The notes: generated by a model not told the origin, from the sequence alone. 64,000 bases of DNA from a virus (IMGVR_UViG_3300037751_000382:2619-66618), one strand, 5' to 3'; shown: positions 2,575 through 59,055, counted from the stretch's first letter. Numbers and translations: made by a program.

Positions 2575-3124
2575 ATGAAAAAGTGTTCAGATTGTCACGA
2601 AATCAAATCAGCGGAAATGTTCTCAAAAGCTAGTTCTAAAAAAGATGGTTTACATAATATCTGTAAAAATTGTGATGTAGAAAGAATTAGGAAATATCGT
2701 AAAAATAATCCTGAAAAAGTTAAAGAAACTCGTCAAAAATATTATAAAAATAATATAGAAAAAATTAGAGAAACCCAGCAAAAATATTATACAAATAATA
2801 TAGAAAAAATTAGAGAAATCCATCAAAAATATTATAAAAATAATGCTGAAAAAATTAGAGAACAGAAGTTAATAAATAACTATGGGCTTACCACCAATGA
2901 TTATGAAAATCTTTTAAATTCTCAAAAGCATAAATGTGCAATCTGTGGTACAAATGATCCCGGCAAAAAATGGATGGAACATTGATCATGATCATGATAC
3001 AGATTTAGTGCGTGGTATTCTATGTACCGCATGTAACATAGGTATAGGTTTGTTTAAAGATTCTCCTTACACTTTACTTAGTGCGGTCAATTATTTACAA
3101 TTTACAAGTAAAATGATTATATAA
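2575..3124 (+). pseudogene. HNH homing endonuclease (endonuclease VII family) with a +1 frameshift in an A6 tract
   Basis: ORFs 2575-2985 and 2936-3124 are the two halves of one HNH: the zinc ribbon CSDCHEIK...CKNC plus KYYKNNxEKI repeats ...CAICGTNDPGKK, then NGWNIDHDHDTDLVRGILCTACNIGIGLF. The frames meet at the A run 2965-2970. Removing one A restores PGKNGWNIDHDHD, matching paralogs. Confidence 0.6.
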
Positions 3125-3600
3125 TGAGTAAAACACTTAGGAAACTGGTTTATGCGTCCATTACGATTATTACAATTATTGCGATGGTGGAAGGAATTCA
3201 AAACCATTTTGGTAAAACCAACATCATTCAAAGAATTGTTGGTGCTGATAACCCGTTTGACCCATCTATCCCACTCCCTAATGGACCTGCTGAAGTACCC
3301 CAGGTTACCAGTGAAGTCACAATTACAACCTACACTGCAAAATGGTGCGCCGCCTGTCATCAATTTAAACCAGAACTCGAAAAACTCAGAAAACTTGGAT
3401 ACTCAGTCACATACATTGACGTTGACGAAAACCAAGAAAACGCTGACAAAGAAAAGGTCTTATCGCTCCCTTTTACAAAGATTACGAGCGACACGGGGAA
3501 AAAAGTGACTTTTTATGGGTTTCAAAGTAGTGATCAAATCATTGAAATGATTAAGCAATTGACAAGTAATAATGAACCAAATAACTCTGAACATAATTAA
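3124..3600 (+). CDS. membrane-anchored thioredoxin-fold protein (WCxxC)
   Basis: N-terminal TM helix ASITIITIIAMV. WCAACH redox motif followed by a thioredoxin-like layout. Confidence 0.5.
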   Translation: MSKTLRKLVYASITIITIIAMVEGIQNHFGKTNIIQRIVGADNPFDPSIPLPNGPAEVPQVTSEVTITTYTAKWCAACHQFKPELEKLRKLGYSVTYIDVDENQENADKEKVLSLPFTKITSDTGKKVTFYGFQSSDQIIEMIKQLTSNNEPNNSEHN

Positions 3601-3859
3601 TTGTGGAGCAATAGTAGCTGTAATAGCTACTGTAATTTCGTTTTCTAATTTGTTTACACCGATTAGGGAAAAATTACCTTATTTAAAGGGTCTGTTTTAT
3701 TGCCCATTGTGTCTTAGTTACTGGATTTCATTACCTATTACATTGTTACTTAGTGAAATAAAATACTGTTTCCTAGTAATTTTGATCAGTAATATAATGA
3801 CACTGTTAATCGTATTGTTATATAATCAGATAAATATATTTGAGAATGAGGAAAAATAA
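3572..3859 (+). CDS. small integral membrane protein (2-3 TM; holin-like candidate)
   Basis: 95 aa, hydrophobic segments AIVAVIATVISF, WISLPITLLL, FLVILISNIMTLLIVLL, charged C-terminus. Confidence 0.3.
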   Translation: MNQITLNIINCGAIVAVIATVISFSNLFTPIREKLPYLKGLFYCPLCLSYWISLPITLLLSEIKYCFLVILISNIMTLLIVLLYNQINIFENEEK

Positions 3860-4146
3860 TGGCACAACGTGTGATAGATGCAGAGCTAAAACCTAGAGGA
3901 TACGAACAATTAGACTCATTAGCTACAGCAACAGGACTTTCCAATGTGCCAAATGGTGCTATTGGAGCACTTCTGCAAGCTGAAGACCAATTTATCCGAT
4001 GGAGTGATGCAATAGTCCCTACTACCTCATTAGGTATGGTGTTAGCCGCTGGCGACACGATATGGTACGTTGGAAGCCTCGCCAAGATAAAATTCATCGA
4101 AATGGCTGCTTCTGCTAAATTAAATGTCTCTTATTACTCCTTGTAA
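3859..4146 (+). CDS. hypothetical protein
   Basis: Intact ORF tightly packed between neighbours. Confidence 0.3.
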   Translation: MAQRVIDAELKPRGYEQLDSLATATGLSNVPNGAIGALLQAEDQFIRWSDAIVPTTSLGMVLAAGDTIWYVGSLAKIKFIEMAASAKLNVSYYSL

Positions 4147-5118
4147 ATGTTACGACTCTTTAAACGATATACCAGTAACAAAGAAACCTTTAGAAATTAC
4201 TCTAAAGCTAATGCTGCCTATTTAAAAGCAACCAATACTACTTACTTAGTAACAGAAAACGCAGCAACACAAGATGGCCCAATCACAGTTACTGGTTGGT
4301 TTAAAATAGATATAGTTGGCGGAACCAAACCAATATTTTGGATCGGTGATAAGGATCAAGCCAATGAATATAAAGGGATATTTGTTACTGGTGGTGGAAT
4401 TTACAGGGTAATTTCTATCAATGCCACTGTTGCTCAAGGTTTATCTGATATAGCTGGTACTTGGAATGATGGAGGTTGGCATTTTTTTGCCGGAGTATGG
4501 ACCTCAAATACCAGTAGGCATGGACGTTTAGATGACACAGTTAGCTCGGCCAATACTAATAATGTAACTAGAACCGCTAATTATGACCGTACATCACTTG
4601 GATCACACTTAGATAGTACACCCGTTTATTCTCAGGCCACGGCTCTAGATAATATTACGCTATGGAATAGTGAACTAACTAATGATGAACTTACTTGGTT
4701 ACGCGATAACCAGACTCCAACATTATATTATGATTTACAATCTCAACAAGGATCACCAAATGTACCGGACACAACTAACCTAAAAGGTTTCTGGTCACTT
4801 GATGAAAGGCACGGTCCAAGAAAAGACTTTTCATCCTCTCGATTAGATATGGCTATGGTTAGAGGAACAGGATTAAGTGATTTTGATGATGTCATTATAG
4901 CTGTTCCTGGTAAAAACACAAAAAGAAATGCAAGAGCATATAATGATCTAGTTCTCAGTGATTTAGTTGATTGGGCATGGGGAGGAATAGGAACAGAGAC
5001 ACTTAATTTTAGTCAAACTATCGATCTTACAGGTACAACTAACCTGTCGTGGGCAGGTATAGTATCAAGTCAGTTAACATTAAACCATATAGCAAATTAT
5101 GAGGTTATTACTCCATGA
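4147..5118 (+). CDS. concanavalin-A-like lectin/LamG-fold domain protein
   Basis: WNDGGWHFFAGVWTS ... pattern typical of LamG/Laminin_G_3 domains. A related domain sits in the C-terminus of 16097-17578. Confidence 0.4.
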   Translation: MLRLFKRYTSNKETFRNYSKANAAYLKATNTTYLVTENAATQDGPITVTGWFKIDIVGGTKPIFWIGDKDQANEYKGIFVTGGGIYRVISINATVAQGLSDIAGTWNDGGWHFFAGVWTSNTSRHGRLDDTVSSANTNNVTRTANYDRTSLGSHLDSTPVYSQATALDNITLWNSELTNDELTWLRDNQTPTLYYDLQSQQGSPNVPDTTNLKGFWSLDERHGPRKDFSSSRLDMAMVRGTGLSDFDDVIIAVPGKNTKRNARAYNDLVLSDLVDWAWGGIGTETLNFSQTIDLTGTTNLSWAGIVSSQLTLNHIANYEVITP

Positions 5119-5435
5119 GACAACGAATGACAAATCGCAGGCTTGCTAGGACAATTCGTTCAGCAGCGAAGCAAAGTTTAGACAAGAGTGAAATTACTAC
5201 CGATCAATATTATCAACTTTCTGGTGCCTCGCATAGTAGGGAGTATTTAAAGGAAGCAAGAAAGCAATTAGAAAAGGAAGGTGCTCCGTGGGCAAAGAAA
5301 GGAATTAGTGAACTAAATTTCCAGTCAATTTGGGATTGGTTTATTGAGAATTGGCCCACAATTTTAAAGATTTTACAGGCACTACTTACCGTGGTTCCTT
5401 TATTTATGGATGATTTAGAGGGAGATAATCAATGA
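5115..5435 (+). CDS. hypothetical protein (position compatible with a small terminase subunit)
   Basis: Basic N-terminus, located just upstream of TerL. No motif support. Confidence 0.2.
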   Translation: MRQRMTNRRLARTIRSAAKQSLDKSEITTDQYYQLSGASHSREYLKEARKQLEKEGAPWAKKGISELNFQSIWDWFIENWPTILKILQALLTVVPLFMDDLEGDNQ

Positions 5436-5755
5436 TTTTAGAGTGCCCTTTTAGAGGTTTACATAGAGTAGGTTACACATGTTACGATCAACATGGAGAG
5501 CTATATGGAGGTAGCTCAAGTTTTTCTAGCAAAATTGAAATAGAAGTACCTGACTCCGTAATTTCTGTTTTAGTTAAAGTTATGGATCAAGGTAACACTA
5601 TTACAAGTGCTCATCTTTGGGAAAACAATAAATGGAAGATGGTGGAATTAGATGATATGGATAAATTGATCGAAAGACTCTCTAAACCAAAGAAACAATT
5701 ACCTCCGAAAAAGTTAGACATGAACAAGTATCCGTTTACAACAATAGATGGCTGA
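5432..5755 (+). CDS. hypothetical protein
   Basis: ORF overlapping both neighbours by 4 nt (translational coupling). Confidence 0.3.
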   Translation: MILECPFRGLHRVGYTCYDQHGELYGGSSSFSSKIEIEVPDSVISVLVKVMDQGNTITSAHLWENNKWKMVELDDMDKLIERLSKPKKQLPPKKLDMNKYPFTTIDG

Positions 5756-7433: not shown

Positions 7434-7434
7434 G

Positions 7435-10777: not shown

Positions 10778-10786
10778 ATCATAGCT

Positions 10787-11240
10787 ATGAAACAATGCAC
10801 TAGGTGTAAGGAAATAAAAGAGAAAAAAGAATTTTCAAAAAAACAACGCTATGAAAGATAGGTTGAGTTCATATTGTAAACAGTGTATAAAAATTAAATA
10901 TTCAACGTATTATAAACACAATAAAACAAAAGAAACGAAACGAAAACGAACACATTTCCATAAAAATAAAGAAACTGAACGAGCGCGTCCAAGAAAATAT
11001 CTATACGGTATTGATCAAAATGAATTTGACCAACTTTTTAAGAAACAAAATTTCAGTTGTGCTATCTGTAAAACTACTGAAATAGGTAAGTTATGGTGGT
11101 GTGTTGATCATGATCACGAGAGTAACTGTGTTCGAGGTATTTTGTGTCACAGTTGCAATTGTGGACTTGGTATGTTTAAGGACAGAGCAGAAAACTTACG
11201 TGTAGCAGCTGATTATTTAGACTATTTTAACAGTAAGTGA
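10787..11240 (+). pseudogene. HNH homing endonuclease (endonuclease VII family) with a +1 frameshift in an A7 tract
   Basis: Short ORF 10787-10861 (MKQCTRCKEIKEKKEFSKKQ...) carries the family zinc ribbon. The downstream frame 10851-11240 continues KDRLSSYCKQC ... FSCAICKTTEIGKLWWCVDHDHESNCVRGILCHSCNCGLGMF. Removing one A from 10837-10843 joins them as FSKNNAMKDRLSSYCKQC. Confidence 0.55.
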
Positions 11241-11248
11241 AAGATTAG

Positions 11249-12635: not shown

Positions 12636-12841
12636 TTGGGGTGTTGTTTAAACCAATAGTAGTAACAATTTTGGAGATTAAAAAATGAGTATTTTTACAC
12701 TGCCGGATTTGGCACTGTTTGCAAATAGCAATGATCCGATGTTCCCGGAACAATGGGCTTGAATTTTGGGTCCCTTACACAGTAATGTGTAAGTAAAAAA
12801 ATGGGCTATATGCTGGAACCTCCTGTTAAGCAAAAAGTACT

Positions 12842-13366
12842 ATGAATAAATCAAGTGAAAATCTTTTTGATAAGGACAATCAGCAGGGAAGGAAAGAAAT
12901 TTCCCCCTCAACGACTACACGCCCATCTCCTAAGAAATTAAGTACAAAAAACATGGAAGGATACCATTTTGATGTTATAAAACGTCGATGGGTAAGAACA
13001 GTAAAAGATGGAAAAGTTTGTTGTAGAGACTGTAAAGAATGGAAAACAGTTGAAAATTTTCCGTGGGCCAAACGTAGCACACAAAGATTATCACAATATT
13101 GCAGAAATTGTAAACGATTTTATAAAGCTGCAAAACGCTACAATATAACAGTTGAAGAAGTTAAGAAACTTTATAGCGCGGAAACTTGTGATTGTTGTGG
13201 AGAAAATTTTCATAATCAAACTCATCAACATATCCATCATTTAAAAGATAGTGTTATTGGAACACTTTGCTTTTACTGTAATTTAATACTTAAAGATGAA
13301 TCACCACAACAGTTACATAGACTTAAGAGTTGTGTTGATTTCATTGAAAATAGGATGAAGATATAG
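12842..13366 (+). CDS. divergent HNH endonuclease of the same zinc-ribbon/endonuclease VII family
   Basis: CCRDCKEWKTVENFPWAKRS...CRNC ribbon plus CDCCGENFHNQTHQHIHHLKDSVIGTLCFYCNLIL. Confidence 0.5.
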   Translation: MNKSSENLFDKDNQQGRKEISPSTTTRPSPKKLSTKNMEGYHFDVIKRRWVRTVKDGKVCCRDCKEWKTVENFPWAKRSTQRLSQYCRNCKRFYKAAKRYNITVEEVKKLYSAETCDCCGENFHNQTHQHIHHLKDSVIGTLCFYCNLILKDESPQQLHRLKSCVDFIENRMKI

Positions 13367-13736
13367 TCTGAACACTATGGAAACATAGTGAGGTAAGCAG
13401 AAATGTCTTGCCCCGTCCAATAGGATGAGTAACAAACTTGCAAGAGTCATTGGCTATCCTTGAAGAAAACATGGTTTCCTAAATTATTGGCTAGACCATG
13501 TAAAACGCAACTATATGCGGGAAACACTGGTTAAGACAAAAGTACGAACGCTAAATTTAACTTACAAGTAACAAAGAATGAATTTACAAATGTTTAGCAC
13601 ATGTAACAATCTTTTGTATACAGTCAATCCGCAGGAAAGACCTATCAGTACGGAAACTGAGCCGGAATCCTCAGAGACTACACGTTGCGAAACTTTTAAG
13701 GTATAGAAACCTTTAGAGTTTATGATATAGTCCGAT

Positions 13737-13774
13737 CTGCATGGGGACATGCAGAATTGAACAGAAATGTTCAA
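13737..13774 (+). promoter_or_regulatory. two adjacent 7-bp-stem hairpins with GNRA tetraloops in the capsid-gene leader
   Basis: ctgcatg-GGGA-catgcag, then aa, then ttgaaca-GAAA-tgttcaa, ending 28 nt upstream of the ATG at 13802. Confidence 0.5.
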
Positions 13775-13801
13775 TCGCTGTTTATAACAGTAGTAACATA
13801 A

Positions 13802-15106
13802 ATGATGCCATTCCTCGTTCACACGGACTTTAGTGATGAGGTCGCAAATGAAGGAGATATTGTTAACACCCGGCGTCCTGCCGAGTTCGTAACAAAGCGT
13901 AAGGTTGACGGTGATACGGTTGTGGCACAAGATGCCAATACAACCAACGTGCAAATCCCCCTGGATCAGCATGTTTATGTCACCTATGTGATCCATGACG
14001 GCGAGTTTTCTAAGTCTTTCCAAGACTTGGTTAATATGTTTGTTCGTCCGGCGTCGATGCAAATTTCTCGGTCAGTGGACAGGATTCTTTGTGGTCAAGC
14101 CCCTCAATTCCTGGCCAATTCGGTTGGACGGCTTGAGGAAATGACTTCCTCGAATGCAAAAGACTTCCTGATTGCAGCTGACCAGAAGCTGAGCGAGAAT
14201 AAGGCGTATATGGAGGGACGTAGCCTAGTTCTTTCACCGGCTTCTCGTGCCGATCTTCTGGGCACTGAGTTGTTTGTAGCGGCTAACACTCGTGGTGATG
14301 GTGGGGTTGCTCTTGAGCAGGCTCGCTTGGGCCAACTTTATAGCTTTGTGACCTATATGGACCAAAATGTTCCGTTCCGCACCCGGACTACAGCGGAAAC
14401 GGCGTCTGGTAACCATAACACTGGGGCTGCAGCTGGGGCTACAGGTAACATTGCCATGGTGGTGGCGAGTTATGTCGTGAAGGTTGGAGAGTACATTTGG
14501 ATTGAGAGTGAAGGTCAAGCCCACGAGATTAAGGCTGAGACCAATGCAGCTGGTGATACTACTGGTATTACTTTGGTTAATCCTTATGTAAATACAGTGG
14601 CTGCTGGCTCTGATCTGCTTGTTTACAAGGCGGCAGATGTCAACGGTGCATATGCTTCTGGCTATTCCAAGGCAATTCTGATGGATGGCTGGGCCGCGAA
14701 CACTGGGCCGATTGTCGGTCAAATCTTGTCCTTTGGAACAAGTAACGGAAGCGATCGTCACACCTATACCATTATAGAAACGACTGCTGACATTTCGACA
14801 AGGCATTATGTTTGGTTAGATCGGCCACTTGAAGCTGCTTTAGCTGACAATGATCTTGCGTTCCCTGGTCCTGCGGGAAGCTTTAACCTTGCTTTCCATC
14901 GGGACGCTATTGCTCTTGTGAGCCGTCCTTTGGCACTGCCGTCTAGCAATACTGGTGTTCAGGCTGGTTTGGCTGTTTACAACGGTGTTGGGATGAGAGT
15001 CACAATGCAATATGATAGCTCTATTCAAGGCACTCGTGTGACGCACGATATTCTGTGTGGCACTCAGGTTTTGGATACGAACTTAGGTTGCGTTCTGCTT
15101 GGTTAA
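13802..15106 (+). CDS. major capsid protein (candidate)
   Basis: 434 aa after the scaffold gene. Visibly higher GC and GC3 than the rest of the window. Followed by a strong intrinsic terminator. Confidence 0.55.
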   Translation: MMPFLVHTDFSDEVANEGDIVNTRRPAEFVTKRKVDGDTVVAQDANTTNVQIPLDQHVYVTYVIHDGEFSKSFQDLVNMFVRPASMQISRSVDRILCGQAPQFLANSVGRLEEMTSSNAKDFLIAADQKLSENKAYMEGRSLVLSPASRADLLGTELFVAANTRGDGGVALEQARLGQLYSFVTYMDQNVPFRTRTTAETASGNHNTGAAAGATGNIAMVVASYVVKVGEYIWIESEGQAHEIKAETNAAGDTTGITLVNPYVNTVAAGSDLLVYKAADVNGAYASGYSKAILMDGWAANTGPIVGQILSFGTSNGSDRHTYTIIETTADISTRHYVWLDRPLEAALADNDLAFPGPAGSFNLAFHRDAIALVSRPLALPSSNTGVQAGLAVYNGVGMRVTMQYDSSIQGTRVTHDILCGTQVLDTNLGCVLLG

Positions 15107-18893: not shown

Positions 18894-19431
18894 GGAGAAT
18901 TTTATGAAAATAGGCGGAGTAGAAGTTAATGGTCCGAGTGAAGAGATTCTTGTTTTGACAAGAATGGATAGTGAGGATATTGTAATTAAGGCTGTAGCGG
19001 TTCCCGATATGGATGAATTTAATAAACTTTGTCCAGAACCTAAACCACGTGGAATTAGAACCAAGAAAGAAGGTTATAAATTAGATTATGATGATCCAAA
19101 TTATAAGAAGCAAAAGGATCATTATAATGAACTTCATACAGCTTACATTGTACTTAAATCCTTAGAACCTAGTGAAATTGAATGGTCTCGTGTAAAAATG
19201 GACCAACCTTCTACTTGGCTTGAGTGGCAAAAAGAATTAAAGGAAACTGGTTTCTCAATTTTTGAGGTTAACCGAATTGTGATGACAGTTATGTCGGCTA
19301 ATGCTTTAGATGAAGGGAAACTTGAAAAGGCCAGAGAGGTTTTTCTACTTGGGCGCAGTCAGCCCGAAAAATCTTGTGGCCTACAGGACGAACAACAGAC
19401 TACGCTATCTGGCGAGCCTGTGAACGGTTAA
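18892..19431 (+). CDS. tail assembly chaperone-like protein (G-like)
   Basis: Upstream of the tape measure. Overlaps a -1 frame ORF that lacks its own ATG. Confidence 0.35.
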   Translation: MENFMKIGGVEVNGPSEEILVLTRMDSEDIVIKAVAVPDMDEFNKLCPEPKPRGIRTKKEGYKLDYDDPNYKKQKDHYNELHTAYIVLKSLEPSEIEWSRVKMDQPSTWLEWQKELKETGFSIFEVNRIVMTVMSANALDEGKLEKAREVFLLGRSQPEKSCGLQDEQQTTLSGEPVNG

Positions 19432-19613
19432 GTGTTCGACCACCAGGTGTAAAAGATGACTGGGACGAGTGTAGCGTATGGACACAAGCAAAAATATTAG
19501 CTTATAACCAAGTGAGGGAGCGCGATGAAATGGAACTTTTGAAAGCCCAAACTGGGGGAGGTAAATCTTCAGGTGAAAGTAGATCGTTTAAAAAACCTAA
19601 AAGACGTAGATGA
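19374..19613 (+). CDS. -1 frame extension ORF (T-like) with no ATG start
   Basis: Open in the -1 frame from 19326. Overlaps the 3' end of 18892-19431 across cccgaaaaatct (A5 at 19367-19371). Confidence 0.3.
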   Translation: MWPTGRTTDYAIWRACERLSVRPPGVKDDWDECSVWTQAKILAYNQVRERDEMELLKAQTGGGKSSGESRSFKKPKRRR

Positions 19614-33083: not shown

Positions 33084-33707
33084 TCAAGTTACTAATGACT
33101 TCAAAAGATATTTAGTCGCAGTTTCAGTGATCGTCGGCGAATTTTTAAGCATTCCAATTCCTACATTACAACAGTTACAGAGTATACCACGAATACTCCT
33201 TGTTTCATGACAGTGATCAATACACCAACCCTTTTTACCTGGTTCTAAAGTACCGCAAATCTTACAAGTTCCATTTTGCTCTTGCAACATTTTATTAAAA
33301 CACTCATTGTCAACCCCATATTTTCTTAGTTTCTTTTGAGCTGAAATCTTATCTTTATTCTCTTGATTGTATTGTTTTGTTTGGGTTAAAATTTTCTCTC
33401 TATTATTTTGATAGTGTTCCTTCTTTTTGGCTTTGACTTTTTCTTCATTATCATGTCTATATTGTTTCATTTGGATTGAAATTTTCTCTTTATTATCTTG
33501 ACAGTATTTCTTTTGTCGGGATACTAATTTTTCTTTATTATTGTGTCTATATTGTTTAACACGAGCTAAAATTTTTTCTTTATTAGTTTGATAGTAGTTC
33601 TTACTTCGGGCACTAATTTTCTCTTTATTATCTTGATAGTATTGCTTCTTGTAAGCCACCACTTTCTCTTTATTGTCGTGATCTTGATCTTGATCTTTTG
33701 TGTTCAT
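33084..33707 (-). CDS. HNH homing endonuclease (endonuclease VII family) with six KxYYQxNKEKI repeats and no zinc ribbon
   Basis: GTCKICGTLEPGKKGWCIDHCHETRSIRGILCNCCNVGIGMLKN. Repeats encoded by roughly 60-bp DNA repeats at 33330-33690. Confidence 0.65.
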   Translation of the reverse strand: MNTKDQDQDHDNKEKVVAYKKQYYQDNKEKISARSKNYYQTNKEKILARVKQYRHNNKEKLVSRQKKYCQDNKEKISIQMKQYRHDNEEKVKAKKKEHYQNNREKILTQTKQYNQENKDKISAQKKLRKYGVDNECFNKMLQEQNGTCKICGTLEPGKKGWCIDHCHETRSIRGILCNCCNVGIGMLKNSPTITETATKYLLKSLVT

Positions 33708-40990: not shown

Positions 40991-41462
40991 TGTAGTTTTA
41001 GTGATGTTTTCTGATTATGATTTAGCTACTTTAGCTACATTAACACATACAATGTTTGGGCAAAGTATTTGCAGGGAAGCCGATAAAAAAGAATTACCAG
41101 AAAAGTTACATAATTTAGAATGTTTAAAGAATTTTGGTGAGAATCAGAACATAAATAAAATTTATTTTGTCTCTTTCTTGATTTTAGCTGATTCGCGTGA
41201 TATACTTGATCTATTAACTATTTGCAATGGATTATCCTTTATACATTCTCCTACACGTAATAGGGACTGTGAGACTTTAATAGTGACCGGTAGTTTATGT
41301 GCTTGGGATCAAGTTTTGGTTAATGCTTTTAGTGTAGTTAGGCGGTATGAAATAGAAAATATATTTAAAACTATTTATAAAGAAGTAGAAAAACTCGGCA
41401 TTTATTCTTTCAAAATTCCTAAACCAATTTCCACTGTTAGTGCAATTGAGTATATACAATGA
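40983..41462 (+). CDS. hypothetical protein
   Basis: 159-aa ORF coupled to the downstream HNH. Confidence 0.3.
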   Translation: MNNVVLVMFSDYDLATLATLTHTMFGQSICREADKKELPEKLHNLECLKNFGENQNINKIYFVSFLILADSRDILDLLTICNGLSFIHSPTRNRDCETLIVTGSLCAWDQVLVNAFSVVRRYEIENIFKTIYKEVEKLGIYSFKIPKPISTVSAIEYIQ

Positions 41463-42016
41463 AAACTTGTTCCAAATGTAAACTGTCTAAAGATACTAAT
41501 GAATTTCATAAGAATAAAAGTAGAAAAGATGGCTTTAATTGTCAATGTAAAGAATGTATAAAAGAATATAGTAATCGCCCAGACGTAAAACAACATAACA
41601 AAGAATATATTAAGGAATATGGTAAGGGATATCGTGATCGCCCAGAAGTAAAACAACGTAACAAAGAATATAATAAAAAATATTATAAGGAATATTTAAA
41701 TCGTCCAAAAGTAAAACAACATAAAAAAGAATATTATAAGGAACGTGGGTATAACACAAAATATGGTTTAACATTAGAAACAGTAAATCAATTAAAGATT
41801 TTGTTGGAAAATAAATGTTGTCTTTGTGGTTGTTTAACAGAAGAATTAGTAATTGACCATGATCATAATACAAATGAAATTAGAGGATTACTTTGCCATA
41901 ATTGTAATTTAGGGTTAGGAAGATTAGGTGACACAATTGAAGGACTTACAAAAGCTATAAAATATCTACAAAGTAAACTTGGTCAAAAATTACTTTTAAT
42001 GATAGGAAACTCATGA
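41459..42016 (+). CDS. HNH homing endonuclease (endonuclease VII family), intact
   Basis: CSKCKLSKDTNEFHKNKSRKDGFNCQCKEC ribbon, KEYxKxY repeats, CCLCGCLTEELVIDHDHNTNEIRGLLCHNCNLGLGRLGD. Confidence 0.7.
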   Translation: MKTCSKCKLSKDTNEFHKNKSRKDGFNCQCKECIKEYSNRPDVKQHNKEYIKEYGKGYRDRPEVKQRNKEYNKKYYKEYLNRPKVKQHKKEYYKERGYNTKYGLTLETVNQLKILLENKCCLCGCLTEELVIDHDHNTNEIRGLLCHNCNLGLGRLGDTIEGLTKAIKYLQSKLGQKLLLMIGNS

Positions 42017-52682: not shown

Positions 52683-52694
52683 AAAGGAAATTAA

Positions 52695-53135: not shown

Positions 53136-53670
53136 AGAAACAATTGAAACATATATGTCGGCAGCGTATCGTTTAGCTAAGCAAAGTTCCGATAGTTCCT
53201 GTCAAAATGGAGCTATCATACTTTTAAATGAGACTTTATTAGGAACAGGTTACAATGAATTTCCCCCCGGAGTTCAATTTGATCTTATAAAAGCCACTCA
53301 ACGACCTGAAAAGTATATTTATTATGAACATGCTGAACGTGCAGCTATTTACCATTGCGCAAAATATGGAAATGGCACAATGGACGGAATAATGATTTGC
53401 CCATGGGCTTGCTGTTGCGATTGTGCCCGAAGTATCATTTGTGCCGGTATTAGGAAAGTTATTGTTCACGCTGAACGTATGGATGTGACCAGAGATTTTT
53501 GGCAGGAAAATATAAAAATTGCTTGGGGAATGTTGACAGAAGCTAAAGTTAAAGTAGAATTGTACAGAGGGCCGGTTGGTGTAAAACCTATTCGAGTGAA
53601 TGGGAAATTGTGGAGCCCGGATACTTGTGACTTTGTGGAGAAAGAAAATGACAGTGACATATGCAGATGA
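53128..53670 (+). CDS. dCMP (deoxycytidylate) deaminase
   Basis: Zinc motifs HAERAAIY and CPWACCCDCA (H-A-E...P-C-x-x-C). Start overlaps the dut stop by 8 nt. Confidence 0.75.
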   Translation: MNKETIETYMSAAYRLAKQSSDSSCQNGAIILLNETLLGTGYNEFPPGVQFDLIKATQRPEKYIYYEHAERAAIYHCAKYGNGTMDGIMICPWACCCDCARSIICAGIRKVIVHAERMDVTRDFWQENIKIAWGMLTEAKVKVELYRGPVGVKPIRVNGKLWSPDTCDFVEKENDSDICR

Positions 53671-53815
53671 TCATGGAAACAATGAGAATTCAAAAAATGA
53701 AAATTGGCGAGATGAATGGTACGATGAAGAGGATTGGTATGATGATTGGGAAGATGATTGGGAAGATAATTGGGAAGATAATTGGTATGATGAATTTGAC
53801 AGGGACGAGGCTTAA
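53648..53815 (+). CDS. 56-aa hyper-acidic Trp-rich protein (DNA-mimic candidate)
   Basis: MTVTYADDHGNNENSKNENWRDEWYDEEDWYDDWEDDWEDNWEDNWYDEFDRDEA. GGAG RBS, overlaps the deaminase 3' end. Confidence 0.45.
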   Translation: MTVTYADDHGNNENSKNENWRDEWYDEEDWYDDWEDDWEDNWEDNWYDEFDRDEA

Positions 53816-54374
53816 GGAGAAAGAAAGATGATTGATTATTGGGATGAATGGGGTGTTTGGCGTGGTTTTACCTGAGGAATATAGATATGATGAACAATAT
53901 GAACCATGTGAAGTTGAGGAGGATTAAGGTGTAATGATGGAAGTTGTTAAAGAACCTTGTTTCAGTGATTTGGATGTTGGGCAGTGTTTTACGTATAAGA
54001 ATCACTCTCACCTTTACCTAAAAATAAGCGGAGATTCTTATTTCTGTTTTAGTTCCAATCTGATATGGAAAATGAATAATTTTGATCTACAGTCCCTAGT
54101 GTCAAAAGTAAATGCTAAACTTACTTGGACATATCAACAATAAAGGATAAACAAATGAAAGTCGAGCAAGAAGAAAAAAGAACAGCTGTACGTTTTCTGC
54201 TCTATTAGTGGGGGAAAGTTTTATCCTTGCCGGGCGGGATAATTATGTAAGAATGAAATTAGGAAAAGATTCTTATTTTAATTTTAATGAGGGTGCTGTT
54301 TACACTACAGTCCGAGGTGTAATAGATAATTCAATAGTAGAACGAGTAGATGTAAAATTGATTTGGAGTAAACT

Positions 54375-56849
54375 TTGAGACGAAATTGCATTTATTTAGA
54401 TACAGAAAGTGTTGGGTTCCATGGTTTAATGGTTCTTATGCAATATGCGTATGATGATGGCCCCATTTCTTTATATGAGCCATGGTTAAATTATCCAAAA
54501 GATACACTTGATCTAATTGAAAAGATATTGGATAAAACGTTAATAGGTTTCAATTTATGTTTCGATCATTTTCATCTTTGCAAATTATATACTACATTTA
54601 GATTGTTACCATTAAATGAGTTACCCGTTAATCTCCCAGTGTTACAGATAGCTGAAGCGGAAAGAGATGGGAGAGATGGTCCGTGTTTAAAGCCAAGAGG
54701 TGCCCTTGACCTTATGCTTCACTCACGAAAAGGTCCTCACCAATTCCTAATGAGCAGAAATGAAGTAAGAATAAGAAAAATTCCTATTCTTATAGCTGAG
54801 GTTCTTAGAGAGGAATTAGAAAAAAGGATCATCTTTGATCCAATTCTTTCAGCTAAATGGGGGATATATGATCGACAACGTAAGGGTATAGTGGACCCAG
54901 AGTTCAAGGACATAGCTCTTAAATTTCATCCTGATAGAGGTTTAAAGTCATTAGCTAAACATTGTTTAGGACTTGACCCTGAGTTTAATTCGTTTCAGGA
55001 AATTTATCCCGAACGGGAATATAAACTGTTTGAATTAGGTTATATACCGTTTGCAACGGGTGCTTCTGATGAAGAATGGAAAGGTTATTCCCGATCGGGA
55101 GAATTTAAAGGTTACACGTGGCCGAAACATATTCACAAGGACATCGAACACTGGAGAAGTAATAATGATGCTAGGAGATATGCTGAAGATGATGTTAAGT
55201 ATACTCGATTACTTGATGAATATTTTGGTTATCCTGACCCCAATGATGATGACTCTATTCTTGCTTGCATGGTGGCTGCTGTAAGATGGCACGGGTTTAA
55301 AATTGATAGTGAAAAGATAAAGGAGTTACTGACTAGTGCAGAGCAATTAATTAAATTGTCACCGGTTAATGTTAATAAACCAACTGAGGTACGGCAATAT
55401 ATTAAAGAGGTAATGGACCCTAGCGAGTGTTTAGCGCTCGATGAAAGCACTAAAAAGGAAAATTTAGAAAAAATTCGGGATAAATTAGTAGTTGAGGAAG
55501 AAGAAATTTGTATAAAGTGTATGGGCGCAGGTTGCCCACGTTGCGACGGCAAAGGCAACCTGTATCCTGGGCCAATGTTAGCATCACTAAGGGCTGGGGA
55601 GATATTAAAGATTAAGTCAGCTGTTAAGGAAGCTGATATGTTTAAAAAGTTACTGGCTGCAGGGCGATTTCACGCTTCATTCAAAGTGATTGGCACGCTA
55701 TCTTCGAGAATGGCGGGCGGGGATGGTTTAAACGCTCAAGGGATAAAAAAGAGCAAAGAAGTAAGAGAGTCATTTCCCTTGGCTTGGGATGGGATGATCC
55801 TGAGTGGAGGAGACTTTGAATCTTTTGAGGTCACAATAGCAGATGCCGTGTTTAAGGATAAAGGTATACGAAGAGATTTATTAACAGGTGTAAGTATACA
55901 TGCCGTGATGGCCACTAAGTTGTATAGCAAGACCATGGAAGAGGTTTTAGCGTCCAAAGGATATGCGGATGGTGGAACCATTGATATGTACACCCAAGGC
56001 AAGCGAGCGATCTTTGGAACACTTTACGGAGGTGACGCGGGCACGATACATAGAAAATTATCTATTCAAATGAAGATTGCAGAGAAGGCATTTAATGAAT
56101 TCCAAGTACAGTATCCAGGGGTAAAGGAAGAGAGAGATAGGAATGCAAAATTATTTAGTGCTCTTATACAGAAAGAAGGCATTGGAACACGCATTGAATG
56201 GAATGAGCCAATTGATTATAGTGAGACATTTTTAGGATTTAAAAGGTACTTTACACTTGAGAATCAGGTAATAAAGGAATTGTATATCCTTGCTCAAACA
56301 ATTCCTGCTTACTGGAATTTGAAAGACGAGAACGGGGACCCTATTAAATTAGTGCGGAGTGATAGGGATCAAACTATAGGGGGCGTTGTCGCCAGCGCAT
56401 TATACGGAGCGGCATTTCAGATACAGAGTAGTAATATTAGGGCAGCTAATAACCACCTGATCCAGTCGCCAGGGGCACAAATTACCAAGGCAGTACAACG
56501 AGCTATCTGGGATATTCAACCGATTGGGATTAATGAGTTCATTGTAGCCCCTATGAACGTGCATGACGAAGTATTGAGTGTGACTAATCCTGATTATATA
56601 ACTATTGTAAAAGAAGTAGTTAAAAATAAAGTCGAAGAATATCGTCCCTTTGTCCCTTTAATTGGAATGCAGTGGAACTCTGGAATGAAATCTTGGGGCG
56701 AAAAAATTGACAGAGATGATCCTAGAGTGTATAATATAGAACCAGATAAAGTTAAGATTTTAAGCGACATGGACGATCCTGACTGTGATGACCTGATGAC
56801 ATTTGAACAAGACCTTGATGAGTGGGAGAGTGAAGATGAGGAAGCCTAA
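54375..56849 (+). CDS. family A DNA polymerase with 3'-5' exonuclease domain
   Basis: Exo I YLDTESVGF. Pol motif A DFESFEVTI, motif B KRAIFGTLYGG, motif C VHDEVL. Confidence 0.8.
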   Translation: MRRNCIYLDTESVGFHGLMVLMQYAYDDGPISLYEPWLNYPKDTLDLIEKILDKTLIGFNLCFDHFHLCKLYTTFRLLPLNELPVNLPVLQIAEAERDGRDGPCLKPRGALDLMLHSRKGPHQFLMSRNEVRIRKIPILIAEVLREELEKRIIFDPILSAKWGIYDRQRKGIVDPEFKDIALKFHPDRGLKSLAKHCLGLDPEFNSFQEIYPEREYKLFELGYIPFATGASDEEWKGYSRSGEFKGYTWPKHIHKDIEHWRSNNDARRYAEDDVKYTRLLDEYFGYPDPNDDDSILACMVAAVRWHGFKIDSEKIKELLTSAEQLIKLSPVNVNKPTEVRQYIKEVMDPSECLALDESTKKENLEKIRDKLVVEEEEICIKCMGAGCPRCDGKGNLYPGPMLASLRAGEILKIKSAVKEADMFKKLLAAGRFHASFKVIGTLSSRMAGGDGLNAQGIKKSKEVRESFPLAWDGMILSGGDFESFEVTIADAVFKDKGIRRDLLTGVSIHAVMATKLYSKTMEEVLASKGYADGGTIDMYTQGKRAIFGTLYGGDAGTIHRKLSIQMKIAEKAFNEFQVQYPGVKEERDRNAKLFSALIQKEGIGTRIEWNEPIDYSETFLGFKRYFTLENQVIKELYILAQTIPAYWNLKDENGDPIKLVRSDRDQTIGGVVASALYGAAFQIQSSNIRAANNHLIQSPGAQITKAVQRAIWDIQPIGINEFIVAPMNVHDEVLSVTNPDYITIVKEVVKNKVEEYRPFVPLIGMQWNSGMKSWGEKIDRDDPRVYNIEPDKVKILSDMDDPDCDDLMTFEQDLDEWESEDEEA

Positions 56850-57464
56850 AGATCATATAACGCCTGCCGGATATAAGTGGTGCAGTGGCTGTAATAAAGA
56901 TGTACCTGTAAATGTGTTCCATAAGGATAAAAATGCTAAAGATGGGTTAAGTTATACATGTAAAAAATGTACAAGAACATACGATCAAAAATACTATAAA
57001 AATAATTCAGATAAAATAAAAGAACAGTGTCAAAAATATGGCCGAAATAATATAGATAAAAGGAAAGAATATAGTAGGAAATATCGTCAAAATAATTTTG
57101 AAAAATAAAAGAAACAAACCGAAAATATAATTATGGAATCACCAATAATGATTTTGATAAAATATTAAATTGTCAAGGAAATTGTTGTATTTTATGCGGG
57201 TCAACTAGCCCTGGTTCAAAACTTAATTGGTGTATTGATCATGACCATAATGATCTTATTAAAGGTAAAAATATTCGCGGAATTTTATGTCATGAATGCA
57301 ATTTTTTACTAGGCAACATTGAAAAATTTGCAAAGAAACTTAATCTTGAAACAAGTGTTGCCCTTTGTGTTATTGTTGATTATCTTAGAAACGGCAAAGA
57401 AAAAGTACAAAACATTTTAAAGGAGAACGAAAGTGGATTTAAACCAACGGAAGTCGTGGCTTAG
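56836..57464 (+). pseudogene. HNH homing endonuclease (endonuclease VII family) with a -1 frameshift in an A5 tract
   Basis: N-terminal part YKWCSGCNKDVPVNVFHKDKNAKDGLSYTCKKC...RKYRQNNFEK stops at 57108. The C-terminal part (YGITNNDFDKILNCQGNCCILCGSTSPGSKLNWCIDHDHNDLIKGKNIRGILCHECNFLLG) is open in the -1 frame from 57102 and has no ATG. Adding one A to 57101-57105 fuses them as NNFEKIKETNRKYNYG. Confidence 0.55.
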
Positions 57465-57808
57465 TGGGCTTTTCACAAATCAGCTAATGGCCCTGGCCGC
57501 CATGCACAATATTAAGGATTATATGGTAAAGACTCGTAGGGAACTAACGGAACAATTAAGTGAAATAGAAGGAGTTGAAATACCGACAAAAGCATGAAAC
57601 CAATTAATTTTCCAAGACAAAATTGTGTTTTCGGTAAACATCAACCGGAATATTTACCTTTACCAGTTTACAGGTCTGATGAAGGCGAGGTGATTTCTTG
57701 TTGGAAACTTACCTGTAAAGAGCGTCTTTATCTACTATTTACAGGTAAACTGTATCTTAGGCAATTAACTTTTAATGAGCCACTACAACCACAATTACCT
57801 CAAGTAAG

Positions 57809-58057
57809 ATGTCCACTATGAATATAGACCAATTAATCGCTAAATTTAAATTAATCTATGGAGATTTTTATGTGACCTTTTTCCGTGAGACTACGCATAC
57901 AGGTGACCTAGAAATAAGATTTAAGGAAGGGTTCCCACCAGTAATTATATTACCTGTGGTTAATTTTAATCCTGATTTTAATGATATTTCTCCTAGTATG
58001 GATGATCCTGGTTGGGAGTTAGAACCTAATTATATTGCTTCTATTGGTTTAAAGTGA
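57809..58057 (+). CDS. hypothetical protein
   Basis: 82-aa ORF, ATGA-coupled to the HNH gene. Confidence 0.3.
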   Translation: MSTMNIDQLIAKFKLIYGDFYVTFFRETTHTGDLEIRFKEGFPPVIILPVVNFNPDFNDISPSMDDPGWELEPNYIASIGLK

Positions 58058-58659
58058 ATAAAAATATAGTGCCCGTTGGCTATAAACGATGTAGTTGTTG
58101 CCATAATGAATTACCGACAGCTCAATTTTCTAAAGATAAAAGTAGAAAAGATGGGTTAAATTGTCAATGTAAACAATGTCGTAAAGAATATAAAAACAAA
58201 TATTATAAAACCCATCATCAACAAAACAAAGATTATTATATAGCCAATAAAATGGCTATTAGAAACTATCAAAATGAATATAATAAAAATTATCGTAAGA
58301 CAAACAAAAATTATTTTAAAGAATATTCGTTAAAATATAATTTTAACCTCACTTTAACGGAGCGTGATTTGATCTTTTCCCAACAAGGAAACTGTTGTGC
58401 GTTATGTGGGAGTTTAACACCAAAAAGCAAACGTGATTGGTGTGTTGACCATGATCATAAAATTGTGGACAAAAGGAACTCAATCAGAGGTATTCTTTGT
58501 CTCAAGTGTAATATGAACATTATAGGGATGGTCGAAAATTTTGCTAATGAACAAGGTTTAGAAATTGACGTGGCAATAGCAAAAATCGCCGATTATCTAA
58601 ATAACCAAGTTTCAAGAACACAAAATTTTTTAAACAATATACCACATAAACGTGATTAA
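58054..58659 (+). CDS. HNH homing endonuclease (endonuclease VII family), intact
   Basis: YKRCSCCHNELPTAQFSKDKSRKDGLNCQCKQC ribbon, NxYxKNY repeats, CCALCGSLTPKSKRDWCVDHDHKIVDKRNSIRGILCLKCNMNIIGM. Confidence 0.7.
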   Translation: MNKNIVPVGYKRCSCCHNELPTAQFSKDKSRKDGLNCQCKQCRKEYKNKYYKTHHQQNKDYYIANKMAIRNYQNEYNKNYRKTNKNYFKEYSLKYNFNLTLTERDLIFSQQGNCCALCGSLTPKSKRDWCVDHDHKIVDKRNSIRGILCLKCNMNIIGMVENFANEQGLEIDVAIAKIADYLNNQVSRTQNFLNNIPHKRD

Positions 58660-58699
58660 AGGAAGGGTTTAATTAAAGCTTTTATACCTCGAAACAGAC

Positions 58700-59055
58700 A
58701 TGGACCAGAGTGGAAAATACAAAAGGACTTTACGAAATTTCTAGAAGATCGAAACTGGCACGTTGAACGTCTTATAGGACACAGTTTACAAGTAGGTATC
58801 CCGGATATATACATCGCCCATAAAAAATACGGGCAAAAATGGGTTGACATTAAGCAAAAAGAACACTATAATTTTACAGCGGCACAAAGATGGAAGTGGC
58901 CAATTTGGGATTCATTTGGAATCGGTATATGGATCATAACAGCATCTACTGAAGAAGAGTATCAAAAATTATTCGGACCTCCGAATTGGAGAAATTACTG
59001 GAAAGAGAGTTACAATGAACGAAGTATTGAAAACGCATTCAAAGACTTACAATGA
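58700..59055 (+). pseudogene. VRR-NUC family PD-(D/E)XK nuclease, frameshifted 1 codon after its ATG
   Basis: The frame open from the HNH stop to 59055 encodes GPEWKIQKDFTKFLEDRNWHVERL...GIPDIYIAH...WVDIKQKEHYNFTAAQRWKW (VRR-NUC D, E-x-K, Q..W motifs) but contains no ATG. The only ATG (58700) is in the +1 frame. catgGGacc instead of catgGGGacc would give MGPEWKIQ... Confidence 0.5.

What the first reader, a model, noticed from the sequence alone, without database searches (positions are those of the whole stretch)
2575..59055. Single-base homopolymer indels are concentrated in nuclease genes, suggesting real inactivation or slippage-dependent control rather than random error
I could identify five frame breaks in the window. 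Three are in endonuclease VII-type HNH genes: A6, A7 and A5 tracts at 2965, 10837 and 57101. One is in a VRR-NUC gene: a GG/GGG tract right after its ATG at 58700. One is at an A5 tract (19367) in the chaperone-like pair upstream of the tape measure. No break was detected in any long core gene (TerL, portal, TMP, primase, polymerase, RNR, ligase), although those offer far more homopolymer targets. HNH genes make up roughly 6% of the sequence but hold 3 of the 5 breaks. That enrichment argues for biology: decay of selfish nucleases, or expression throttled by transcriptional or translational slippage because the nucleases are toxic. Systematic homopolymer sequencing error remains the trivial alternative and must be excluded first.
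Basis: partly seen in the sequence, partly recalled or inferred. Interest (0 to 1): 0.6.

Follow-up and report, generated by a model that had tools for sequence, protein, structure and literature searches.

The report
Decaying selfish nuclease genes in a phage
Three of seven mobile HNH nuclease genes in this uncultured phage carry real one-base frameshifts, best read as ordinary decay of selfish genes; the other two "breaks" are a conserved programmed tail-gene frameshift and a misread start codon.

Summary
Three of the five reported breaks are real frameshifts. They lie in Endonuclease_7-type HNH genes, at A6 (2965-2970), A7 (10837-10843) and A5 (57101-57105). All three are base-for-base identical in other JGI and Logan assemblies, so random consensus error is unlikely.

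The A5 site at 19367 belongs to a conserved -1 frameshift of the tail-chaperone type. Two relatives keep the same two-ORF layout, and selection switches to the -1 frame.

The 58700 site is not a break. The nuclease ORF is intact and its conserved N-terminus lies upstream of that ATG. A neighbouring HNH gene inserted at its GTG start, leaving ATT.

The HNH genes are mobile insertions: the sites of four are empty in relatives and a fifth sits in an intron those relatives lack. They hold 6% of the sequence and 13% of runs of at least 5 nt. Three of three hits there gives P about 0.002.

Best reading: early decay of selfish homing-endonuclease genes, while selection purges frameshifts elsewhere. 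The closest relative carries a different HNH gene after polA with at least two independent breaks. Slippage-based throttling has no support: sites are not conserved, there is no downstream structure, and runs are short.

Unreported: two group I introns split the major head gene.

The parts
2575..3124 (+). HNH1, an Endonuclease_7-type HNH gene. It is broken inside the catalytic domain at A6 2965-2970 (0-frame stop 2983-2985), and the downstream part continues in the +1 frame. It sits between a 343-aa gene and a thioredoxin gene.
   Evidence: PF02945, 77 bits on the repaired protein, domain residues 98-175 spanning the break; 34 relatives' ORFs align across two frames; the 343-aa and thioredoxin homologs lie only about 40-160 nt apart in the relatives that carry both (worked out for six). 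The same allele is in L081, L166 and L167.
10787..11240 (+). HNH2, an Endonuclease_7-type gene. It is broken at A7 10837-10843, between the two CxxC pairs of the N-terminal zinc ribbon (0-frame stop 10859-10861). A 129-aa ORF from ATG 10851 keeps the whole catalytic domain.
   Evidence: Window 10771-11244 is absent from the 78%-identical relatives L171 and L172, where the flanking genes abut (TAA ATG). The same allele is in L081, L082 and L166.
56836..57464 (+). HNH3, an Endonuclease_7-type gene overlapping the end of polA. It is broken at A5 57101-57105, followed at once by TAA 57106-57108. The rest continues in the -1 frame.
   Evidence: The same allele is in JGI 3300037722 (L083). The truncated 90/96-aa product is on record from JGI and Logan contigs, including a 101,438-bp contig.
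33084..33707 (-). HNH4, an intact Endonuclease_7 gene that lacks the N-terminal zinc ribbon. Its motif is DHCH.
41459..42016 (+). HNH5, an intact Endonuclease_7 gene.
58054..58659 (+). HNH6, an intact Endonuclease_7 gene. It is inserted exactly at the GTG start of the downstream nuclease gene and now uses that GTG itself.
   Evidence: Relatives L182 and L168 lack window 58059-58665. The left junction GGTTTAAAGTGAA is shared with them.
58672..59055 (+). An intact PD-(D/E)xK nuclease-like ORF with a VRR-NUC-like fold. It has no ATG, GTG or TTG in frame. The likely start is ATT 58672, behind the Shine-Dalgarno-like AAGGAAGG. It lies in the same frame as HNH6, 12 nt after its TAA. The ATG at 58700 is out of frame and irrelevant.
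   Evidence: Model pLDDT is 82.9. The top PDB fold hit is 4qbn 'VRR_NUC domain', followed by Hjc resolvases. There was no Pfam, PHROG or PDB sequence hit.
18904..19613 (+). A tail-assembly-chaperone-like ORF pair. The 0-frame ORF ends at TAA 19429-19431. The -1 frame is open from 19326 to 19613. The shift site lies within 19340-19371; candidates are T5 19340-19344 and A5 19367-19371.
   Evidence: The layout is conserved in L169 (95% nt) and L170 (76% nt). Synonymous/nonsynonymous counts switch from the 0 frame upstream to the -1 frame in and after the overlap.
12842..13366 (+). HNH7, a diverged Endonuclease_7-like ORF (IHHLKD in place of DHDH), located inside group I intron 1 of the major head gene.
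   Evidence: (19.8 bits, below the 23.6 cutoff)
12685..15106 (+). Major head protein gene split by two group I introns. Exon 1 is 12685-12759, intron 1 is 12760-13440, exon 2 is 13441-13476 (36 nt), intron 2 is 13477-13804, and exon 3 is 13805-15106.
   Evidence: Rfam RF00028 gives 68.8 bits at 13438-13754, plus partial hits at 12754-12927 and 13232-13388. The intron-less relative L171 has one continuous ORF. Both 5' splice sites follow a U and both introns end in G. The spliced protein raises the PHROG major-head score from 176 to 195 bits and fills profile positions 3-25.

Best explanation
The window comes from an uncultured phage (about 35% G+C) that carries seven Endonuclease_7-type HNH genes. 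Six are free-standing insertions between conserved genes and one lies inside a group I intron. All behave like mobile homing-endonuclease genes (HEGs).

Three of the free-standing copies have each taken one single-base indel in or next to an A-run. These genes are 43% A and have 2-4 times the usual density of homopolymers. Nothing selects for keeping the nuclease once the element is fixed. In essential genes the same slips are removed by selection, so surviving frameshifts pile up in the HEGs. This is the early degeneration phase of the HEG invasion-fixation-decay cycle. Shown here: the lesions, their reproducibility, the mobility of the genes, and independent lesions in a relative. Inferred: that the lesions are neutral decay and that the products are inactive.

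The other two sites have separate explanations. The 19340-19371 site is a conserved programmed -1 frameshift producing a long form of a tail-chaperone-like protein. The '58700 break' is a scar of HNH6 inserting at the start codon of a VRR-NUC-like nuclease gene. That gene is left intact, with ATT behind a strong Shine-Dalgarno-like sequence.
For: - Frame breaks and single-base repairs.
- Pfam Endonuclease_7 on all six classic copies.
- Identical alleles in other JGI and Logan assemblies that differ from the window elsewhere (a SNP and a 23-bp deletion).
- No repaired version among about 15 billion proteins, while the fragments are on record from several contigs.
- Insertion status. HNH2 is absent in L171/L172. 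HNH6 is absent in L168/L182. The HNH1 site is empty in six relatives examined. No Endonuclease_7 hit is recorded between polA and NT5C in L181.
- The family norm is a single ORF: 544 homologs, and about 40 HNH loci in relatives are single-frame.
- The nearest relative (JGI 3300025324 / ENA ERZ27254795) has a different HNH gene after polA, broken near residue 37 and again near the C-terminus.
- Homopolymer statistics.
- Chaperone site.
- Nuclease start.
Against: - No reads were inspected and the sequencing platforms are unknown. Some assemblies may derive from the same runs, so the number of truly independent samples is uncertain (at least two JGI sample IDs plus two Logan runs).
- Each broken gene has exactly one lesion and an otherwise perfect reading frame. 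That fits very recent decay, but it fits retained function through low-level slippage equally well.
- No diverged orthologs of the three broken genes exist in the databases searched, so relaxed selection could not be measured.
- About 40 HNH loci in more distant relatives look intact, against 3 of 7 broken here. This lineage therefore has unusually many breaks.
- HNH2's 129-aa ORF has its own ATG and may still be active.
Confidence: 0.75

Rival explanations
1. Systematic homopolymer sequencing or assembly error: the true genome has intact HNH genes.
For: All three sites are A-runs of 5-7 nt, the classic error context. Platforms and reads could not be checked, and no paper mentions the sample or run IDs. 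More distant relatives show almost no broken HNH loci.
Against: The alleles are identical in JGI and Logan assemblies built with different assemblers, from at least two JGI sample IDs and two runs. None of the other 328 runs of at least 5 nt is associated with a detected frame break, including eight other 7-nt runs inside genes. P(3 of 3 in HNH) is about 0.002-0.006. Two sites have an extra base and one a missing base, so there is no one-directional bias. A relative's HNH gene is broken at short A3/G2 runs, which are not error-prone.
Confidence: 0.07
2. Slippage-dependent throttling. The A-runs are recoding sites, ribosomal (+1/-1) or transcriptional, that let through a small amount of full-length, otherwise toxic nuclease.
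For: Each gene is one base from intact and all catalytic motifs are preserved. A-runs support low-level Lys-tRNA slippage. At site 3 a stop codon follows the run at once, a 'shifty stop' context (Weiss et al. 1987, cited in PMC5009743). The neighbouring nuclease gene also has a weak start: ATT here, TTG or GTG in relatives.
Against: No homolog shares a break at these positions. Shift directions are mixed (+1, +1, -1). Downstream folding is no stronger than in shuffled sequence, with z-scores of +0.4, -1.0 and -0.1. Runs of 5-7 are shorter than those known to give efficient transcriptional slippage in bacteria (my own knowledge, not tested). The stop after site 3 arises automatically when one A is lost from GAAAAAATAAAAG. 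The relative's HNH gene has two breaks at non-slippery sequence.
Confidence: 0.08
3. Some 'broken' genes still work as shortened or split proteins. One example is the 129-aa HNH2 ORF from ATG 10851, which retains the whole HNH domain and half of the zinc ribbon.
For: HNH4 is an intact paralog that naturally lacks the zinc ribbon. Gene callers on JGI and Logan contigs call the 129-aa ORF with an Endonuclease_7 hit.
Against: No Shine-Dalgarno-like sequence precedes ATG 10851. HNH1 is cut inside the catalytic domain, between CxxC and DHDH, and HNH3 is separated from its DNA-binding N-terminal part. This reading can therefore apply to HNH2 at most.
Confidence: 0.1

Closest known systems
Free-standing homing endonuclease genes of phages and their degeneration (HEG life cycle; T4 seg/mob genes; ICP1 HEGs, PMC10448857)
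   Same: They have nuclease domains typical of HEGs. They sit between conserved genes and are present or absent among close relatives at exact gene junctions. There are several paralogs per genome, some inactivated by frameshifts.
   Different: The nuclease domain here is Endonuclease_7-type HNH, with an N-terminal CxxC...CxxC zinc ribbon and Lys/Asn-rich repeats. It is not GIY-YIG, T5orf172 or HNH-AP2. Homing and cleavage were not tested. All three lesions lie at A-runs.
Programmed -1 frameshift in tail assembly chaperone genes (lambda G/GT; Xu, Hendrix & Duda 2004, from my own knowledge)
   Same: Two overlapping ORFs lie just upstream of the tape-measure gene. The shift is -1, the arrangement is conserved in relatives, and the -1 extension is under purifying selection.
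   Different: There is no sequence match to known chaperone families and no canonical X XXY YYZ heptamer (A AAA T or T5). One extra 169-aa ORF lies between the pair and the tape-measure gene.
VRR-NUC / archaeal Hjc-type PD-(D/E)xK nucleases
   Same: The predicted fold matches a VRR_NUC domain structure (4qbn) and Hjc resolvases. A G-x-P-D ... D-x-K ... Q motif is invariant in 19 sequences.
   Different: The Pfam VRR_NUC model does not hit. There is an extra conserved W-rich C-terminal part. The start codon is non-canonical (ATT) after the HEG insertion.
Group I introns with HNH ORFs in phage structural genes (Cluster J mycobacteriophage capsid/tail introns, PMC3706429; Twort, SPO1, T4 introns)
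   Same: A self-splicing-type intron interrupts a conserved, highly expressed gene. One intron carries an HNH ORF, and intron-less relatives define the insertion site.
   Different: Two introns lie only 36 nt apart in the major head gene, leaving a 12-codon micro-exon. The intron ORF is an Endonuclease_7-like HNH with an altered motif.

Membership tests
Endonuclease_7 (PF02945) HNH nucleases | Pfam model hit above the gathering score | tested here: met
   77, 66 and 48 bits for repaired HNH1-3, and 60, 62 and 47 bits for HNH4-6 (cutoff 23.6). HNH7 scores only 19.8 bits.
Endonuclease_7 (PF02945) HNH nucleases | Catalytic/zinc motif CxxC ... DH(D/C)H ... RG-LC-xx-CN | tested here: met
   these residues are invariant in all six classic copies, including the three broken ones after repair.
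Free-standing homing endonuclease gene | Presence/absence polymorphism at an otherwise conserved gene junction in related genomes | tested here: met
   HNH2. HNH6. HNH1. HNH3 and HNH6: L181 shows no Endonuclease_7 hit in the region. At the polA site the nearest relative carries a different HNH allele. HNH4 and HNH5 were not tested.
Free-standing homing endonuclease gene | The endonuclease cleaves the HEG-less allele and the gene is copied into it (homing) | not testable with these tools
   This needs co-infection or in vitro cleavage assays.
Programmed frameshift / transcriptional slippage site (for HNH1-3) | The shift site and two-frame layout are conserved among diverged homologs | tested here: not met
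   of 544 homologs of HNH1, many span 96-100% of the repaired query in one protein; relatives' HNH loci are single-frame. The one broken relative is broken elsewhere.
Programmed frameshift / transcriptional slippage site (for HNH1-3) | Stimulatory element, here tested as downstream structure | tested here: not met
   z-scores of +0.38, -1.01 and -0.08 against shuffles. Upstream Shine-Dalgarno-like stimulators were not assessed systematically.
Tail assembly chaperone G/GT-type programmed -1 frameshift | Overlapping ORF pair next to the tape-measure gene, second ORF in the -1 frame | tested here: met
   The caveat is a 169-aa ORF (19610-20119) between the pair and the tape-measure gene.
Tail assembly chaperone G/GT-type programmed -1 frameshift | Arrangement conserved in relatives, with selection on the -1 extension | tested here: met
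   In the overlap the counts are 4 synonymous and 1 nonsynonymous in the -1 frame, against 1 and 6 (L169) and 0 and 5 (L170) in the 0 frame. Downstream the -1 frame gives 13 and 8 (L169) and 17 and 7 (L170).
Tail assembly chaperone G/GT-type programmed -1 frameshift | Canonical X XXY YYZ slippery heptamer | tested here: not met
   only A AAA T (A4 in L169) or GTT TTT C is available. The exact site is unresolved.
Tail assembly chaperone G/GT-type programmed -1 frameshift | Sequence similarity to known chaperone families | tested here: not met
   no Pfam or PHROG hit at E up to 0.05.
VRR-NUC (PF08774) | Pfam model hit | tested here: not met
   no family at E up to 0.05; no PDB sequence hit with a 19-sequence profile.
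VRR-NUC (PF08774) | PD-(D/E)xK fold and catalytic motif | tested here: met
   the top hit is 4qbn_A 'VRR_NUC domain' (E 1.8e-3, TM 0.76 by target, rmsd 2.5 over 88 columns), followed by Hjc resolvases. P48, D49, D63, K65 and Q76 are invariant.
Group I intron (RF00028) | Covariance-model hit above the gathering score | tested here: met
   Intron 2 scores 68.8 bits against a cutoff of 50. Intron 1 gives only two partial hits flanking the ORF, 46.3 and 26.8 bits, together covering model positions 5-251.
Group I intron (RF00028) | Exon ends in U, intron ends in G, and removal restores a continuous conserved ORF | tested here: met
Group I intron (RF00028) | Self-splicing | not testable with these tools
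   This needs RT-PCR or in vitro splicing.

The most novel reading that the evidence does not exclude
The three A-run breaks are not dead ends. They would be 'pseudo-pseudogenes': reversible or leaky switches in which rare Lys-tRNA or polymerase slippage on A5-A7 yields trace amounts of full-length Endo VII-type homing nuclease. That would keep a multi-copy, potentially toxic nuclease load tolerable while preserving mobility. The weak starts of the neighbouring VRR-NUC-like nuclease gene (ATT here, TTG or GTG in relatives) would belong to the same low-expression strategy.
Probability: 0.08. Interest if true: 0.55.

Novelty: new member of a known kind. Interest (0 to 1): 0.22.

Why it matters
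The main lesson is practical. Frame breaks that cluster in nuclease genes of a metagenomic phage are real, but they follow from ordinary population genetics of selfish homing-endonuclease genes. They are not a sign of a new control mechanism.

The case also shows how to separate three things that look alike in raw sequence:
- a decaying gene;
- a programmed tail-gene frameshift;
- a gene whose start codon was displaced by a mobile-gene insertion.

The phage is a compact natural example of heavy HEG load. It carries seven Endo VII-type HNH genes and twin group I introns 36 nt apart in the major head gene. Intron-less and HEG-less relatives are available, so the homing sites can be read off directly.

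Tried and rejected
Searches that found nothing useful:
- Megablast of two window segments against INPHARED phages: no match. TerL tblastn there gave 27% identity at most, so no annotated close relative exists.
- TerL scan of JGI metagenome contigs: only relatives at 68% or less, plus two short near-identical fragments that miss the sites.
- IMG/VR scans with thioredoxin, polA and the 343-aa gene: nothing.
- Exact look-ups of five hypothetical repaired proteins (A5 and A8 versions of HNH1, repaired HNH2, repaired HNH3, and MGPEW... for the nuclease): none on record.
- Look-ups of the HNH6 protein, the 169-aa protein and the 96-aa HNH3 fragment: not on record. The 101,438-bp JGI contig could therefore not be fetched.
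- Paper search for the sample and run IDs: nothing, so the platforms remain unknown.
- tRNA scan: none.

Ideas rejected:
Relatives with normal starts have the same CATGGACCAG or CATGGGCCAG, and in both the ATG is out of frame.
- Other candidate breaks at gaps or overlaps (39323-39628, 53104-53831, 44913, 62798). Nothing suggested a split gene. The gaps at 12635-12842 and 13366-13802 turned out to be intron RNA.
- Pinning the chaperone shift to A5. Synonymous changes in Ala-Arg just upstream in the -1 frame leave T5 19340-19344 as an alternative.

Full report
**What the window is.** The window has no near match among deposited phages, and its TerL is at most 27% identical to any of them. It is a tailed-phage genome segment of about 35% G+C. 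Identified genes:
- TerL, 5748-7433
- portal, 7435-9249
- major head protein
- tape measure, 20121-23213
- primase/helicase-like gene, 34157-36952 on the minus strand
- RNR, dUTPase and dCMP deaminase
- PolA, 54375-56849
- ligase-like gene

The same sequence turns up in several public metagenome assemblies.
- Logan SRR33174183 covers window 2865-29823, with one SNP at 19704.
- JGI 3300037722 covers window 1-12985, and 56736-64000 with a 23-bp deletion at 62088.
- Logan SRR12682375 covers 173-4260 and 58937-62080.
- JGI 3300053780 covers 48165-57038 and 58188-60104.

Because these assemblies differ from the window at a SNP and an indel, they are not copies of the same consensus.

**The three HNH breaks are real.** A motif scan and Pfam found six classic Endonuclease_7 (PF02945) genes. 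A seventh, diverged copy was found later. Three change frame.
- HNH1 (2575-3124) changes frame at A6 2965-2970, and removing one base restores it.
- HNH2 (10787-11240) changes frame at A7 10837-10843, and removing one A restores it.
- HNH3 (56836-57464) changes frame at A5 57101-57105, and adding one A restores it.

Each repaired product aligns with the intact paralogs through the zinc ribbon, the Lys/Asn-rich repeats, CxxC, DHDH and RG-LC-xx-CN.

In HNH1 the break lies inside the Pfam domain. In HNH3 it lies just before the domain. In HNH2 it lies between the two CxxC pairs near the N-terminus.

For HNH1 the extra base could also be the T that follows the run, because paralog HNH4 reads PGKKGW at that point. 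'Homopolymer indel' is therefore likely for HNH1 but not certain.

The broken alleles are identical wherever another assembly covers them. The truncated products are on record from JGI and Logan contigs. No repaired version exists among about 15 billion proteins.

**Is the clustering more than chance?** The seven Endo VII genes occupy 6.2% of the window. They are 43% A, against 34% overall. They hold 48 of 376 runs of at least 5 nt (12.8%) and 14 of 77 runs of at least 6 nt (18.2%). No run in the window exceeds 7 nt.

If indels or errors hit runs uniformly, three of three landing in these genes has P = 0.002 for runs of at least 5 nt and P = 0.006 for runs of at least 6 nt. As a control, I aligned the ORFs of all fetched relatives to the window. 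That screen re-found sites 1 and 3 and found no other + strand frame change in the 27.7 kb it covered. Inspection of every gap and long overlap found no further split gene. The correct tally is three of three, because the other two sites are something else.

**Site 58700 is not a frame break.** The ORF at 58660-59055 has no ATG, GTG or TTG in frame. Eighteen homologs start M/V-K-A-F-x-P-R-N-K-H-G-P-E. Those residues are encoded in frame in the window from ATT 58672 onward (ATT AAA GCT TTT ATA CCT CGA AAC AGA CAT GGA CCA GAG). The 'ATG' is simply part of CAT GGA.

Relatives confirm this.
- L168 starts with TTG and reads CAT GGG CCA.
- L182 starts with GTG and reads CAT GGA CCA, exactly as the window does.

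Both relatives lack HNH6. The left junction in the window (GGTTTAAAGTGAA...) is the relative's sequence up to and including the GTG, which now starts HNH6. The right junction (GGTTTAATTAAAGC) is an altered copy of the same site.

So HNH6 inserted at the start codon of this gene and took over its GTG and its overlap with the upstream stop codon. The nuclease ORF is left 12 nt after HNH6's TAA, in the same frame, behind AAGGAAGG, with ATT where the start was. Whether ATT initiates, whether there is reinitiation or readthrough, or whether the gene is silent is inference.

The 'VRR-NUC' label is half supported. No Pfam, PHROG or PDB sequence hit was found. The AlphaFold model (pLDDT 82.9) does match a VRR_NUC domain structure best and archaeal Hjc resolvases next. 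G-x-P-D ... D-x-K ... Q is invariant.

**Site 19367 is a conserved programmed frameshift.** The 0-frame ORF (18904-19431) and the -1 ORF (open 19326-19613) lie just upstream of the tape measure. Two relatives keep the same layout: L169 at 95% nucleotide identity and L170 at 76%. Codon counts (synonymous/nonsynonymous, L169 then L170) show the selected frame switching.

| Region | 0 frame | -1 frame |
|---|---|---|
| Upstream of the site | 4/1, 10/2 | 1/3, 1/12 |
| Overlap | 1/6, 0/5 | 4/1, 4/1 |
| Downstream | 4/20, 1/25 | 13/8, 17/7 |

This is the pattern expected of a G/GT-type tail assembly chaperone. There is no sequence hit to known chaperone families and no canonical heptamer. The run is A5, A4 and A5 in the three phages. 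An invariant T5 at 19340-19344 is an alternative slip site. I could not resolve which is used.

**The HNH genes are mobile insertions.**
- Relatives at 78% nucleotide identity (L171, L172) go straight from the virion-protein stop to the adaptor ATG, where the window has HNH2.
- Where relatives carry homologs of both HNH1 flanking genes, these lie about 40-160 nt apart (worked out for six), leaving no room for an HNH gene.
- L168 and L182 lack HNH6.
- L181 (61% PolA identity) shows no Endonuclease_7 hit between polA and NT5C.

HNH1 has no ortholog above 51% identity among 544 homologs.

**Decay versus designed slippage.** The closest relative is JGI 3300025324 / ENA ERZ27254795, at 80-90% nucleotide identity. 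It also has an HNH gene right after polA, but it is a different allele. That allele is broken near residue 37, at AGAAAGGTGG, which is not a long run. It is broken again near its C-terminus. Independent lesions at different positions in the same kind of gene are what decay predicts. A programmed site would be conserved.

Other points against design:
- The shift directions are mixed.
- RNA downstream of the three sites folds no better than shuffled sequence.
- The stop right after site 3 arises automatically from losing one A.

One lesion in three of seven genes and none with two fits a Poisson mean of about 0.4 (my own arithmetic). That is an early stage of decay.

The literature describes exactly this behaviour for phage HEGs (PMC10448857).

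What I cannot exclude is low-level spontaneous slippage that still yields a little enzyme. There is no evidence for it. I put it at about 8%.

**Sequencing error.** I could not see reads or learn the platforms. Four observations argue against error:
- the alleles are identical across assemblies and assemblers;
- none of the other 328 runs of at least 5 nt is associated with a detected frame break;
- two sites carry an extra base and one a missing base;
- the relative is broken at non-homopolymer sequence.

I put error at about 7%.

**Found on the way.** The 'intergenic' stretches around 12842-13366 are intron RNA. Rfam finds a complete group I intron at 13438-13754 (68.8 bits). It also finds two partial hits flanking the HNH7 ORF.

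The intron-less relative L171 has one continuous head-protein ORF. This fixes the layout as follows:
- exon 1, 12685-12759
- intron 1, 12760-13440, carrying HNH7
- a 36-nt exon 2, 13441-13476
- intron 2, 13477-13804
- exon 3, 13805-15106

Both exon ends are U and both intron ends are G. The spliced protein restores the first 37 residues and improves the PHROG major-head match from 176 to 195 bits. A core gene is therefore interrupted after all, but by introns and not by indels.

A real frame-breaking indel does segregate in one non-nuclease gene. A 23-bp deletion in 61911-62885 is present in the JGI 3300037722 contig.

**Verdict.** This is a known kind of phenomenon in a new phage, of modest interest.

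Noticed in passing
window 12685-15106: The major head protein gene is split by two group I introns (12760-13440 and 13477-13804), only 36 nt apart, leaving a 12-codon micro-exon (13441-13476). Intron 1 carries a diverged Endonuclease_7-like ORF (12842-13366, IHHLKD motif). Relatives L171 and L172 lack both introns.
   Followed up: yes
window 58054-58680; L182 760-850; L168 263-353: HNH6 inserted exactly at the GTG start codon of the VRR-NUC-like gene and now uses that GTG, which overlaps the upstream TGA. The nuclease gene is left with ATT 58672 behind AAGGAAGG, in the same frame as HNH6 across a single TAA.
   Followed up: yes
window 62088-62110 versus L083 5353: The JGI 3300037722 contig has a 23-bp deletion that splits the 324-aa gene 61911-62885 (no PHROG hit) into 61-aa and 264-aa ORFs. 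This is a natural frame-breaking variant in a non-nuclease gene.
   Followed up: partly
L179 2816-3087, L180, L182 1-150: In the nearest relative the HNH gene after polA is a different allele. It has at least two frame breaks, one near residue 37 and one near the C-terminus. Assemblies tend to end inside HNH genes (L081 starts at window 2865, L178 ends at 57038, L180 ends in and L182 starts in the relative's HNH gene).
   Followed up: partly
window 2680-2860: HNH1 contains about four tandem copies of a roughly 45-nt repeat encoding KYYKNNxEKIRE. Similar Lys/Asn-rich repeats in varying numbers occur in the paralogs. They account for much of the A-run density.
   Followed up: no
window 48424-48954 and about 63540 onward (L083 6805-7293): Two further HEG-like genes of another type, HNH_3 plus an AP2 DNA-binding domain. 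Both appear intact.
   Followed up: no
window 53600-53815: An ORF rich in acidic residues and tryptophan (DDWEDDWEDNWEDNW repeats) overlaps the last 70 nt of the dCMP deaminase gene (53104-53670) in the +1 frame. It is unclear whether it is a separate gene.
   Followed up: no
window 15399-16100 and 16642-17574: The 233-aa gene is absent from relative L172, and part of the 493-aa Laminin_G_3 gene does not align with it. These are further variable cassettes in the structural module.
   Followed up: no
window 45342-48442: A SAM methyltransferase / C-methyltransferase gene and a GT41-like glycosyltransferase gene sit in the replication module, conserved in relative L181. They may act in DNA or sugar modification.
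   Followed up: no
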